DNA of 64,000 bases, taken from contig NW_027117341.1 in assembly GCF_038025025.1 (NCBI RefSeq), positions 124,001-188,000 of the forward strand, written 5' to 3'. Shown one piece after another: positions 3,243 to 5,556 of this stretch. Both the position numbers and the translations under genes were made by a program. The notes below the pieces were generated by a model. The model did not search any database, was not told the origin of the DNA, and saw only the letters and a program-made list of their open reading frames with translations. Within the stretch, counting starts at the first letter, position 1. Each line of letters starts with the position of its first letter. Source of the DNA: Phyllosticta citribraziliensis. Lineage: Eukaryota.

Positions 3243-3335
3243 GAATGAATGCTCCCTTGACGTAGCTGATACAACAAATGACCACTCCCAAGGCGCAACC
3301 GCAGCGTTGAACGAATGCTCCTCAGGCGCGGCTTT
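3243..3335 (+). repeat. 3 x 33-bp degenerate tandem repeat with GAATGCTCC core
   Basis: Units start at 3243 (gaatgaatgctccc), 3276 (aaatgaccactccc) and 3309 (gaacgaatgctcct). Confidence 0.7.
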
Positions 3336-3456
3336 CACGAGGCCCGCACTTCTGCCTCAGCTCCCATCACCTCATCTTTTCCCACCACACGCTCGCCACT
3401 CTTCCATCTCCTCCATTCACACACATCAAGTCGAGTCGAGCACTGGCGACGAAGAA

Positions 3457-5429
3457 ATGTCCTCCAGTGAGGATGCACACGACAGTGCTCCAAAGGAACC
3501 TGAGCAGGATGATGCCAGCCTTTCTGGTCCTGAAGCTGATGGCCAAGCAAATCAAAGTGTTGAAAGCGACGCGCATGGCGGCCACGACGAAGTCGTCTAT
3601 CACCAAGAGGATGAAGGGCAGGAGGGTGACGGTTTGCAATCTCCTGCAGCTGCGGACGAGCTCCATGACGAAAATGAGGCAATGGAAACAGACGAGCACA
3701 TTGAGGGCGTCGGCTCCCCATGCATCCGGGGAATTGATGACATCGACAACTGCGAACGACGCACCGAAGGATCTCCTCCGTCCTCACGAGTGCGGAGTCC
3801 TTCCACGCCCGTGTTGCAAGGTACAATGCCAGGCACGACCGGTCAAGGAGTATCCCCCCTGGAAGACAGGAGCGCGCTGCACGACGAGATGTCAAGTCCG
3901 CTCAGCCCGACAACTGGAATTACAGCCTCGGAAGAGACGGCCGCCCCGAGCACACCACTGCCAAACGCAACACTTCAAACGATCACTCCGCCCGCGACAG
4001 CTAAACCCAAATGTAGCCAAAGCATGGCACAGAAGTTGCAGAGTCTGGTGCCTCTCGCGATCCGAACTCAGCAAAATACCTACCTGGACAAGATTCGGGG
4101 TTTGCTCACTTGCACATGTGGCCCTGGAGCTCCTATCATGGACGCGGGATCGATTCCCACGGTCGAATCTGCGCTGAAATTCGTTGATCACCATCTCTCT
4201 GCTCATATGCAGTGCAAATGCACCGTCCATGTTACCTTGGCTGCAGCTGCCTTTTTCATGACCCTCCGAGGCCCCGTTACCAAGCAAACATCAATTCTCT
4301 GGGCCCAGTTGTGCCGTACCGAAGGCAACAATGACGGTCTGAAAAGACTTCTGCGCGACAATGGAACGACAGAGATGTTCATCTTCAACCCTGGCAGTGT
4401 TGAATCTGGTGACGGCACCCACGAAGAAGCGGAACGCGTGGAAACACAAGAGTCAGTACAAGCGCTGCCGGATAAGTGGCAGAACTTCAAAACTCAGCAT
4501 TCTATCCGAATCGAAGCCGAGTACTACTTCGTCGACGCGTTCCCGGAATTCCGCGGCATTGCCAACCTTGCGCGAACCTTTGAGATGGAGGTTTGTCTCC
4601 ACGCGTTCCATGTCGCAGACGCACGTTTGGGGGTGAAACTGTCACTCGTGCAGCAGCTGGTGGCGATGCATCCGAACGTTTGGCGCACGGCCATGGTGAT
4701 GCAAGAGAGTTTTCAGCCCCATTTGACGTGGCATCCCCAACCTCTTTTCGTCTTCGATGAAGAAGACGATGGAAAGACTGTGGTCATCCAAGTCCCCAAG
4801 CAGGCTGGTGATGGTTCCCGATTCACTGCAAATTTCGTCTTCTGTGCGACGGGATCTGTCACCATTATCATCCCAAGTAACGCTCCACTTGACGATGATC
4901 TGGAGGGGGAGATGAGGTACATGGCCTTCATGGAGTGTGCCAATAGCCGCGGAATTCACACCAAGGAACTGCAAATCCCTGCCGGAAAGGTACTGGCTTT
5001 GGATGCAAAAATACCCTGGACTGCATTTAGGGGATCCAAGTCTTCGATTGGCCATATCACATACTCCGCGGCATCATCTCCGAGCATCATTCCATTTGAA
5101 GTCCAAAACGACAAGGTCAGCAGCTTTGAGATGGAACTGCTGCCCGGTTCTTGGGGACCTCTTTCGGCGGCCGTCGTCGGCCGAAGATCATGGGGTTGTC
5201 CAGAGGTGCAGAGAGTATTGGAACTCTCTCTCTCTCTGACGAGAAAATCTGGTCAGACTACGTCCAGGAAACCAAAAGCAATGCCATCGTGTCCTTCTAG
5301 GACAGTCTCTTCACGCTCATGGATGCCGAAAGAAAACTGCTCGGTGTCAATGCAATGAGTCCTTGGATGAGACACGGCAGGGGTGGTGCCAGCCAGAACC
5401 AGATTGATAGCATTCTGGCAGATAGTTGA
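3457..5429 (+). pseudogene. Large hypothetical gene (acidic disordered N terminus, CxC...CxxH motif, possible degenerate 2OG-dioxygenase-like domain) with damaged 3' end
   Basis: Open frame to a (CT)7 tract at 5224-5237. (CT)6 would continue as DEKIWSDYVQETK...FTLMDAERKLLG, with an in-frame TAG at 5298 and TGA at 5427. Confidence 0.55.
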
Positions 5430-5465
5430 AGTGGTCCATACCCCAGCGGGATGGAGATTTGTTTT

Positions 5466-5556
5466 AAATGAGGCACCCTGGGTCTGGCTGCAGCAGCGCA
5501 TGAATGCTTCCTAAGCGTGACTGTAGCAGTGAATGGATGCTCCCTAAGAGCACTCG
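5466..5556 (+). repeat. 3 x ~33-bp degenerate tandem repeat with G(A/G)ATGCT(C/T)CC core
   Basis: Units start at ~5467 (aatgaggcaccct), 5499 (catgaatgcttcct) and 5532 (aatggatgctccct). Confidence 0.7.

What the first reader, a model, noticed from the sequence alone, without database searches (positions are those of the whole stretch)
3243..5556. A gene bracketed by direct-oriented 33-bp tandem arrays with a GAATGCTCC core
Seen: three 33-bp units lie ~120 bp before the ATG (3243, 3276, 3309). Three ~33-bp units lie ~40 bp after the likely stop (5467, 5499, 5532). Orientation is the same and the core is AATGRATGCTCCC. Inference: phased (~3 helical turns) binding or recombination sites marking a gene cassette, such as subterminal repeats of a cryptic mobile element or sites for a DNA-binding/modifying protein. 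No transposase is visible here.
Basis: partly seen in the sequence, partly recalled or inferred. Interest (0 to 1): 0.75.

Follow-up and report, generated by a model that had tools for sequence, protein, structure and literature searches.

The report
Transposon relics with 33-bp repeats
The repeat arrays on either side of this fungal gene are most likely the internal repeats of two separate, decayed miniature transposons from a family scattered through the genome, not the ends of a gene cassette, so the finding is real but fairly ordinary.

Summary
The motif is real and enriched: GAATGCTCC occurs 6 times against 0.85 expected. Only 4 of the 6 claimed units carry a clear core (3244, 3310, 5499, 5532). 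A third array lies on the minus strand at 33674-33905.

The window is from a filamentous ascomycete. The only relative of the enclosed protein is named Phyllosticta citribraziliensis.

Laying public runs on the region shows that the downstream block, about 5442-5595, belongs to a dispersed multi-copy family:
- summed contig depth rises 20- to 50-fold;
- many contigs leave the block at its two edges into different flanks;
- other copies carry extra units.

The left ends of those other copies are the reverse complement of the window's right tail (29 of 34 by eye). The family therefore has terminal inverted repeats, whose inner part is itself a motif unit.

The upstream array (about 3190-3398) is a diverged relative (nhmmer E 1e-4). 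It lies under an RNA-derived contig that runs into the gene, and it has one more 33-nt unit in a sister organism.

Best reading (0.75): two independent MITE-like relics with internal tandem repeats, a known kind of element. The gene is an orphan, not a transposase. No target-site duplication or autonomous partner was found.

The parts
3190..3216 (+). E1 left end: TACAGTGGGCGCCGAAAATGAGGCGAC, a terminal-repeat-like block. The sister organism reads C at 3190, giving CACAGTGGG.
   Evidence: sequence. table 3 (3190 T>C in X4); similarity to the reverse complement of the E2 right tail, score 24, reached by 22 of 1000 shuffles; similarity to the E3 left end, reached by 6 of 500 shuffles.
3243..3341 (+). 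E1 internal array: three 33-bp units. Units 1 and 3 have a good core and unit 2 is degenerate, so the effective period is 66 bp.
   Evidence: D1, D2. An X1 contig covers 3252-3644. The sister organism (X4) has a net +33 nt here: the joint 3262->3270 has 40 letters between its sides, and these hold a further core-like word (tables 5, 5c, 8).
3366..3398 (+). E1 right-end remnant (TCACCTCATCTTTTCCCACCACACGCTCGCC), weakly complementary to the left end.
   Evidence: I3: 3204-3215 with 3367-3378, 83%.. Not significant on its own: 330 of 1000 shuffles reach its score. Similar to the right flank of E3, reached by 9 of 500 shuffles.
3457..5358 (+). Enclosed gene P0001: 633-aa uninterrupted ORF, an orphan protein with an acidic, Ser/Pro-rich N-terminal third.
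   Evidence: No Pfam family. The only relative in two very large protein searches is its own annotated record. X1 contigs cover 3252-3644 and 4034-5451.
5442..5481 (+). E2 left terminal inverted repeat. The inner 16 nt (5466-5481, AAATGAGGCACCCTGG) are kept. The outer half is rearranged in this copy.
   Evidence: I2: 5466-5481 with 5562-5577, 81% complementary. table 7: other copies read ...CACAGTGGGTGTAGAAAG before 5466 and ...GGGTGTAGAAAGAGATGGGA before 5474.
5499..5561 (+). E2 internal units: two units with a good core (5499, 5532). The second is shortened.
   Evidence: Other copies carry more units: joints 5548->5488 and 5548->5522 with unit-like letters between (tables 5, 5c).
5562..5595 (+). 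E2 right terminal inverted repeat (CCAGGAAGTCTCATTTCTTTCGACACCCAATGTG). This is the part of the family with the highest summed depth.
   Evidence: depth 1934 (X1) and 3474 (X4) in bin 5543-5683; 10 contigs leave at 5595; a pattern made from other copies' left ends matches only 5570-5590 on the minus strand (0.00 expected); the ends pair in the fold, z -2.34.
33568..34002 (-). E3: a third array on the minus strand. It has five core copies at 33895, 33856, 33806, 33760 and 33710 (spacing 39-50 bp), with flanks resembling those of E1.
   Evidence: TRF 33674-33864, period 50, 3.9 copies.. E1-like left flank (6 of 500 shuffles) and right flank (9 of 500). Its own ends are not significantly inverted: 532 of 1000 and 125 of 500.
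2300..3083 (-). Neighbouring divergent gene: secreted-looking protein with an HExxHxxGxxH zinc-protease motif and two short introns. It is context only, not part of the element.
   Evidence: sequence; an X1 contig joins 2499->2548 and 2763->2808 with CT..AC ends and reaches 3083. Pfam found nothing on two exon fragments.

Best explanation
The two arrays are the internal tandem repeats of two separate, decayed, non-autonomous DNA-transposon relics (MITE-like elements). One relic, E1, lies in the 5' leader of an orphan gene. The other, E2, lies just past its 3' end.

A typical family member reads: outer terminal repeat of 18 nt (CACAGTGGGTGTAGAAAG), then a run of about 33-bp units with the core GAATG.ATGCTCCC, then one unit in inverted orientation, then the outer repeat inverted. 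The first unit doubles as the inner part of the left terminal repeat.

Inferred, not shown: the units are reiterations of the site that the (unseen) transposase binds inside the terminal repeat. Shown by comparison of copies: unit number drifts, presumably by slippage or unequal exchange.

The gene is not cargo. It is flanked by two insertions that happen to share an orientation. One side effect is shown. E1 lies under an RNA-derived contig that runs into the gene, and because the core contains ATG, E1 places upstream ATGs ahead of the main start.
For: (1) Dispersed family. When 4 public runs were laid on 2300-6500, summed contig depth rose from about 20-38 to 815-1934 in X1 and from about 70-100 to 737-3474 in X4, over 5402-5683 only. 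Contigs leave the stretch at 5466-5477 on the left (X4: 7; X2: 3). On the right they leave at 5589-5597 (X4: 12; X1: 4; X2: 1). Their loose letters agree poorly (0.45-0.83), which means different flanks.

(2) Terminal inverted repeats. The letters that other copies carry before 5466 and 5474 (two runs, X4 and X2) continue into window 5466-5481. Joined in this way, they are the reverse complement of window 5562-5595 at 29 of 34 positions (my count by eye). A 21-nt pattern made from them hits the window once, at 5570-5590 on the minus strand, with 0.00 expected. The inner arms 5466-5481 and 5562-5577 are 81% complementary. The ends of E2 pair in the fold, z -2.34, matched by 3 of 200 shuffles.

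(3) Variable unit number. Other copies carry extra units (joints 5548->5488 and 5548->5522). The sister organism has a net +33 nt inside E1, holding one more core-like word (table 5c).

(4) E1 is homologous to E2: nhmmer E 1.7e-4 and 1e-4; local alignment score 52, reached by 0 of 1000 shuffles. E1's left end resembles the inverted right end of E2 (22 of 1000).

(5) E3 shares both flanks with E1 (6 and 9 of 500 shuffles) and the core motif.

(6) No coding capacity in the elements. None of the 38 ORF translations tested from the window hit a transposase family.

(7) The gene is an orphan with no family.

(8) An X1 contig covers 3252-3644. X1 holds spliced RNA: a neighbouring contig skips two CT..AC introns. 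ATG 3278 opens a 10-codon uORF, and ATG 3315 opens a 51-codon uORF that overlaps the main ATG.

(9) An earlier, unchecked note of this scan on another piece of the same genome reached the same reading (e1-7566237). This is a lead, not independent support.
Against: No target-site duplication could be found at either end of E1 or E2 (reading).

Inside the window alone the inverted repeats are weak:
- E1 ends: 330 of 1000 shuffles score as well.
- E2 ends: 40 of 1000.
- Both scores (19 and 21) lie under the 95th percentile (25) of 500 random places with the same geometry.
- The E1 fold is no better than shuffles: z +0.79, matched by 158 of 200.
- E3's own ends are not inverted (532 of 1000; 125 of 500).
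- The right ends of E1 and E2 are not significantly alike (114 of 500).

The outer half of E2's left repeat is not recognisable in this copy.

The 29-of-34 count rests on consensus letters of contigs that I could not retrieve, with agreement 0.65-0.83. The pattern was made partly from the window's own tail, so its zero mismatches are by construction. The real information is the 18 of 21 agreement between the two sources.

No empty site, no autonomous element and no whole genome were available. Summed contig depth is not a copy number.

Two of the three arrays lie upstream of start codons, which a purely regulatory reading would also predict.
Confidence: 0.75

Rival explanations
1. Host cis-regulatory arrays. 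The core is the binding site of a fungal transcription factor, and the arrays are homotypic site clusters in promoters, spread by duplication of promoter modules and not by transposition.
For: E1 lies 116-267 nt upstream of the ATG at 3457, in a divergent intergenic region. E3 lies 370-600 nt upstream of the ATG at 34273. The core is kept in units of different length, 33 against 39-50 bp. Family copies lie in contigs of high RNA depth.
Against: E2 lies between the tail ends of two convergent genes. The family has inverted ends and sharp edges with unrelated flanks. The orientation of the motif relative to the nearest gene differs between E1 and E3. No transcription-factor motif library could be consulted, so no factor is named. 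This reading is not exclusive of the best one, because an element-borne site can be co-opted.
Confidence: 0.1
2. One composite mobile unit. The left end of E1 and the right end of E2 act together and move the 2.4-kb segment with the orphan gene as cargo, the first reader's cassette in the manner of a Pack-MITE or composite transposon.
For: Both elements point the same way, so the outermost ends (3190 and 5595) form an inverted pair that is 13 of 16 alike. The gene is a fast-evolving orphan.
Against: In the sister organism the gene body parts that are covered (4322-4651, 5131-5462) run at ordinary depth, 73-104. Only the E2 block is multiplied. E1 is present next to the same protease gene in that organism, so the left junction is old. 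No duplication flanks 3190 or 5595.
Confidence: 0.05
3. RNA-level elements. The sense-oriented motif acts in the 5' and 3' untranslated regions of the mRNA, for example as a site for an RNA-binding protein or through upstream ATGs.
For: Both arrays are in the sense orientation of the gene. An RNA-derived contig covers units 2-3. The units carry ATGs that open uORFs. Family copies occur in RNA contigs of high depth.
Against: No RNA contig shown covers the window's own E2. E3 has no recognisable gene on its strand. No Rfam family matches. E1 does not fold better than shuffles. The inverted ends point to a DNA-level element.
Confidence: 0.05
4. Locally arisen minisatellites that share a short word by chance.
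For: The arrays are short (2-5 units) and imperfect. TRF misses two of the three. Two of the six exact 9-mer matches (2777, 36892) are isolated and fit the chance expectation of 0.85.
Against: E1 and E2 are alike beyond the core (nhmmer E 1e-4; 0 of 1000 shuffles). E2 is multi-copy in three runs.
Confidence: 0.03

Closest known systems
Tandem-repeat-containing MITEs (DTC84 of the clam Donax trunculus and the 'pearl'-related elements of oysters and insects; PMC3879986, abstract read)
   Same: A small non-coding element with a central array of a few core repeats, flanked by sequences with short inverted repeats. Copy number of the core repeat varies between copies, so almost every copy is unique.
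   Different: This one is in a fungus. The units are 33 bp. No microsatellite segment adjoins the array, and no conserved AA target duplication was seen. Here the first unit is itself part of the terminal inverted repeat. There is no sequence relationship.
mimp / impala (Tc1-mariner MITEs of Fusarium; terminal-repeat expression CAGTGGG.GCAA[TA]AA, passage of PMC6131394; promoter association from the listing and abstract of PMC3599309)
   Same: A fungal MITE of about 200 bp found next to genes. The end starts CAGTGGG. E1 (CAGTGGGCGCCGAAA) and the typical copy (CAGTGGGTGTAGAAA) each fit 13 of the 15 positions of the published expression, by my count.
   Different: Two of the fixed positions differ. 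The TA before E1 reads CA in the sister organism and in other copies, so a TA target duplication is not supported. mimps are not known to me to hold internal tandem repeats (recalled). No impala-like transposase was available to compare.
Degenerate MITE families of Epichloe endophytes (PMC3227409, passages read)
   Same: Decayed fungal MITEs concentrated near genes: 47% lie within 500 bp of a gene, more at 5' ends, and the authors suspect some lie in untranslated regions.
   Different: No internal tandem arrays appear in the passages I read (that paper masked tandem repeats before its search). The sequences are unrelated.
Reiterated transposase-binding sites near transposon ends (Ac/Ds subterminal hexamers, En/Spm 12-bp motifs, the IR/DR repeats of Sleeping Beauty); recalled from general knowledge, no call
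   Same: A short motif present in the terminal repeat is repeated further inside the element.
   Different: In those elements binding has been shown, and the repeats occur at both ends in inverted orientation. Here nearly all units point one way and binding is only inferred.

Membership tests
MITE (non-autonomous class II element) | Terminal inverted repeats | tested here: met
   Met for the family: the left ends of other copies agree with the reverse complement of the window's right end at 29 of 34 positions (by eye), supported by the pattern hit. Only partly met in the window's own copies: E2 inner arms 81% and fold z -2.34; E1 not significant (330 of 1000).
MITE (non-autonomous class II element) | Target-site duplication flanking the element | tested here: not met
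   No direct duplication of 2-10 nt at 3190/~3390-3398 or at 5442/5595 (reading). The ends are decayed, so this is weak evidence against.
MITE (non-autonomous class II element) | Small size and no coding capacity | tested here: met
   E2 is about 154 bp, E1 about 209 bp, E3 about 435 bp. No protein-like ORF lies inside.
MITE (non-autonomous class II element) | Many dispersed copies with unrelated flanks | tested here: met
   depth rises 20- to 50-fold over 5402-5683 in X1 and X4. At least 30 loose ends are listed at the two edges, with low agreement, and 34 more rows are not shown. Shown for E2 only. E1 runs at ordinary depth at the 90% likeness threshold.
MITE (non-autonomous class II element) | Presence/absence polymorphism (empty sites) | tested here: inconclusive
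   The sister organism (X4) has E1, with one more unit. Its contig 5131-5462 runs on unlike the window after 5462, but the letters were not shown.
MITE (non-autonomous class II element) | An autonomous relative with the same ends and a transposase | not testable with these tools
   No genome is held for this window. None of the 38 ORF translations from the window hit a transposase family.
Tandem-repeat-containing MITEs of the pearl/DTC84 type | Central array of core repeats with variable copy number between inverted-repeat flanks | tested here: met
   (extra units in other copies; +33 nt in X4).
Tandem-repeat-containing MITEs of the pearl/DTC84 type | [quoted passage not shown] | tested here: not met
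   Neither is present in E1 or E2. The architecture is the same, but this is not a member of that lineage.
mimp / impala-type (Tc1-mariner) MITE | Terminal repeat matching CAGTGGG.GCAA[TA]AA | tested here: inconclusive
   13 of 15 positions for E1 and for the typical copy (by eye).
mimp / impala-type (Tc1-mariner) MITE | TA target-site duplication | tested here: not met
   TA precedes CAGTGGG in E1, but X4 reads C at 3190 and other copies read CA. The right ends read TG or CA.
Promoter array of transcription-factor sites | Position upstream of genes and a match to a known factor's motif | tested here: inconclusive
   2 of 3 arrays lie upstream of an ATG. E2 lies between convergent gene ends. 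No motif library is at hand.

The most novel reading that the evidence does not exclude
The family acts as a mobile regulatory module. Its reiterated core would be a protein-binding site that, once inserted, supplies the 5' leader (with upstream ATGs) or the promoter of the neighbouring gene, so that dozens of loci, among them highly expressed ones, are wired to one factor. On this reading the orphan gene P0001 owes its expression to E1. A bolder and less likely variant is that E1 and E2 together could move the orphan gene as a composite unit.
Probability: 0.15. Interest if true: 0.6.

Novelty: new member of a known kind. Interest (0 to 1): 0.3.

Why it matters
It removes a false lead: there is no gene cassette or new recombination system here. 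It also documents a fungal example of miniature transposons that carry short tandem arrays, a kind of element mostly described in bivalves, insects and plants. I found no fungal description in four literature searches, which is not proof that none exists. For annotating this genus it matters in three ways. Such relics sit in leaders, gene spacers and perhaps introns. They add upstream ATGs. And they will mislead motif-discovery and repeat-based analyses.

Tried and rejected
- Whole-genome census: not possible, because no genome is held for this window.
- Two metagenome scans. The 22-nt tail of E2 gave 0 hits. A two-unit pattern gave one locus, L001, which is an unrelated 17-bp repeat.
- Rfam: 0 families at gathering score over the whole window. 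Only a chance tmRNA match (E 0.34) in 3000-6200.
- ARAGORN: one tRNA-Ala at 53321, nothing near the arrays. A small-RNA or SINE reading found no support.
- Literature search for the motif strings returned primers only (485 papers, 20 listed).
- Earlier findings by sequence: no look-alike windows for E2 or E3.
- No RNA holder is listed on record. I treat X1 as holding RNA only because one of its contigs skips two CT..AC introns.
- Parts without cover, not used as evidence: X1 shows no contig over 3645-4033. Its gene contig stops at 5451, 15 nt before the first downstream unit. Its leader contig starts at 3252. These could mark transcript ends, strain differences or assembly breaks, and I draw no start or end from them.
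- Structure of the enclosed protein (residues 185-570, single sequence): mean pLDDT 33, unusable, so no fold search was made. The ESM Atlas gave no usable hit.
- Solo-LTR reading: considered because of the sharp edges and high RNA depth. Dropped because the ends are inverted and not direct, the block is only about 150 bp, and no TG..CA ends or primer-binding site follow.
- Intron in the gene's 3' part, as in the annotated 577-aa model: the X1 contig 4034-5451 has no gap.
- Target duplications of 2-10 nt at the element ends: none seen.
- Transposon superfamily (Tc1-mariner, hAT, CACTA, Transib, judged from the CACAGTG start): cannot be decided without target duplications or a transposase.
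Full report
**1. What the window is**

The window is eukaryotic and fungal. Long ORFs match two HET domains, elongation factor 3, an SNF2 helicase, fungal rhodopsin domains, an AA9 oxidase, End3 and a carboxylesterase. GC content is about 52-63%. No whole genome is held for it. The only relative of the enclosed protein, in two very large searches, is its own annotated record, which a source names as a hypothetical protein of Phyllosticta citribraziliensis.

**2. The observation**

Reading 3000-5800 and the repeat tools confirm a same-strand word, TGAATGAATGCTCCCT, at 3242, 3308, 5497 and 5530.

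- The 9-mer GAATGCTCC occurs 6 times against 0.85 expected; 0 of 100 shuffles reach 6.
- The 13-mer core with up to 2 mismatches occurs 10 times against 3.11 expected; 0 of 100 shuffles.
- Two of the six claimed units (3276 and 5467) are too degenerate to pass at 2 mismatches.
- TRF misses both arrays.
- The stop codon is at 5356-5358, 108 nt before the downstream array, not about 40.
- A third array, outside the finding, lies on the minus strand at 33674-33905. It has five cores spaced 39, 50, 46 and 50 bp. A fixed phase of three helical turns is therefore not a property of the motif.
- A unit profile finds nothing else in the window below E 0.1. The isolated 9-mer matches at 2777 and 36892 fit chance. 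The match at 2777 lies in a 44-nt intron, shown by the X1 joint 2763->2808.

**3. The decisive result**

I laid four public runs on 2300-6500. X1 holds spliced RNA of the same organism: one contig joins 2499->2548 and 2763->2808 with CT..AC ends. X4 is a sister organism at about 90-95% identity.

Over most of the stretch, depth is flat (X1 about 13-38; X4 about 70-100 where covered). Over 5402-5683 the summed depth rises to 815-1934 in X1 and 737-3474 in X4.

Contigs leave the stretch at two edges.
- On the left, before 5466-5477: X4 7 contigs, X2 3.
- On the right, behind 5589-5597: X4 12, X1 4, X2 1.

Their loose letters agree poorly, so the flanks differ. Other copies hold more units: joints 5548->5488 and 5548->5522 have unit-like letters between the sides. 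The downstream array is therefore one copy of a short dispersed family. Summed depth is not a copy number, so I give none.

**4. The ends are inverted repeats**

Other copies carry these letters before 5466 and 5474: ...CACAGTGGGTGTAGAAAG in X4 and ...GGGTGTAGAAAGAGATGGGA in X2. They run on into window 5466-5481. Read together, they are the reverse complement of the window's right tail 5562-5595 at 29 of 34 positions (counted by eye).

- A 21-nt degenerate pattern made from both sources hits the window only at 5570-5590 on the minus strand, with 0.00 expected. The independent information in this is the 18 of 21 agreement between the two sources.
- Inside the window the inner arms 5466-5481 and 5562-5577 are 81% complementary.
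- The ends of E2 pair in the minimum-energy fold: z -2.34, matched by 3 of 200 shuffles.
- The outer half of the left repeat is rearranged in this copy.
At another copy that position reads GAATAAGACTCCC (X2, before 5493), which is closer to the core.

So the first unit is part of the terminal repeat, and the right end holds one inverted unit. From this I infer that the units are reiterated copies of the site a transposase recognises. This has not been shown.

**5. The upstream array**

E1 (about 3190-3398) is a diverged relative of E2.
- nhmmer gives E 1.7e-4 and 1e-4 in the two directions. The local alignment score of 52 is reached by 0 of 1000 shuffles.
- Its left end, TACAGTGGGCGCCGAAAATGAGGC, resembles the inverted right end of E2 (22 of 1000 shuffles). 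In X4 position 3190 reads C, restoring CACAGTGGG.
- Its own ends are only weakly complementary (330 of 1000 shuffles), and it folds no better than chance (z +0.79).
- X4 carries E1 at the same place with a net 33 extra letters that hold another core-like word. The insertion therefore predates the split of the two organisms, and unit number has changed since.
- E3 shares both of its flanks with E1 (6 and 9 of 500 shuffles). Its own ends are not demonstrably inverted.

An earlier, unchecked note of this scan on another piece of the genome (e1-7566237) describes the same arrays as internal repeats of two families of small decayed DNA transposons. My tests agree with it for E2, and less firmly for E1 and E3.

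**6. The gene**

P0001 (3457-5358) is a 633-aa uninterrupted ORF.
- No Pfam family.
- No relative other than itself in 5.8 billion clustered proteins or in 1.84 billion representatives.
- No ESM Atlas lead, and an unusable single-sequence model with pLDDT 33.
- Nothing suggests a transposase or a DNA-binding protein.
- Where X4 covers the gene body, depth is ordinary, so the gene has not multiplied with the element.
- An X1 contig covers 3252-3644, so units 2 and 3 of E1 lie in RNA-derived sequence that runs into the gene.
- Because the core contains ATG, E1 adds a 10-codon uORF (ATG 3278) and a 51-codon uORF (ATG 3315) that overlaps the main start. Whether they affect translation is untested.

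**7. Weighing**

The mobile-element reading explains:
- the dispersal and the sharp edges;
- the inverted ends;
- the variable unit number;
- the lack of coding capacity;
- the positions in a leader, between convergent gene ends, and in a long spacer.

It lacks target duplications, empty sites and an autonomous partner, and the in-window inverted repeats are statistically weak. A regulatory role is not excluded and could be a secondary use.

With three arrays in 64 kb, a neighbour within 2.3 kb is not surprising (roughly 1 in 5 by a Poisson estimate of my own). Shared orientation has a chance of 1 in 2.

**8. Comparison with known elements**

- Architecture: this matches tandem-repeat-containing MITEs such as DTC84 and the pearl elements (PMC3879986, abstract). 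It has neither their microsatellite nor their AA duplication, so it is an analogue, not a member.
- Terminal repeat: the CAGTGGG start recalls mimp/impala (expression quoted in PMC6131394, passage). Two fixed positions differ and a TA duplication is not supported.
- Position near genes: fungal MITEs close to genes are well documented (PMC3227409, passages).

Verdict: a new member of a known kind, of modest interest.

Noticed in passing
window 6382-8382 (-), transcript to about 6016: A 666-aa Ser/Thr/Pro-rich protein with a signal-peptide-like start, a Cys-rich N-terminal block, 47-aa-type tandem repeats (DNA period 141 and 69 bp at 6950-7316) and a hydrophobic C-terminal tail, which looks like a cell-wall or GPI-type protein. 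It has no Pfam family. It lies under an X1 contig of depth 924, the highest of the single-copy parts laid.
   Followed up: partly
window 5662-5903: A short X1 contig (242 nt, depth 15.7) lies between the tail ends of two convergent genes, just past E2. The ORFs there do not look protein-like. The word CAGYATTTTTGTTTT occurs twice, 89 bp apart (5637 and 5726).
   Followed up: no
window 5146-5358: The annotated 577-aa model of the enclosed gene departs from the uninterrupted ORF after residue 563, which implies a predicted intron. The X1 contig 4034-5451 runs through without a gap, so the 633-aa reading may be the expressed one.
   Followed up: partly
window 3649-3930: One low-depth metagenome contig (X2, depth 2) joins 3649 to 3930 with 4 letters between. 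This is a net loss of 276 nt, or 92 codons in frame, inside the acidic disordered N-terminal third of the orphan protein. It may be a strain length variant.
   Followed up: no
window 31621-32196 (+) and 34273-35121 (+): The two ORFs on either side of the third array are distant paralogues (28% identity over 118 aa, E 3e-12). Neither has a Pfam family.
   Followed up: partly
window 34002-34021: An exact 10-bp tandem duplication (ACCGCCGTGC twice) abuts the putative left end of E3. Its meaning is unknown.
   Followed up: no
window 2764-2807 and 36885-36935: Two isolated exact copies of GAATGCTCC lie in an intron. The first intron is shown by an RNA joint. The second is only inferred from branch and acceptor signals. 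Both copies overlap branch-site-like CTAAC or CTGAC words and are probably chance.
   Followed up: partly
L001 53-167: The only metagenome hit to the two-unit pattern is an unrelated 17-bp tandem repeat (ATGCTTCCTAAGTTGAC, about 4 copies) on a 2.6-kb contig.
   Followed up: yes
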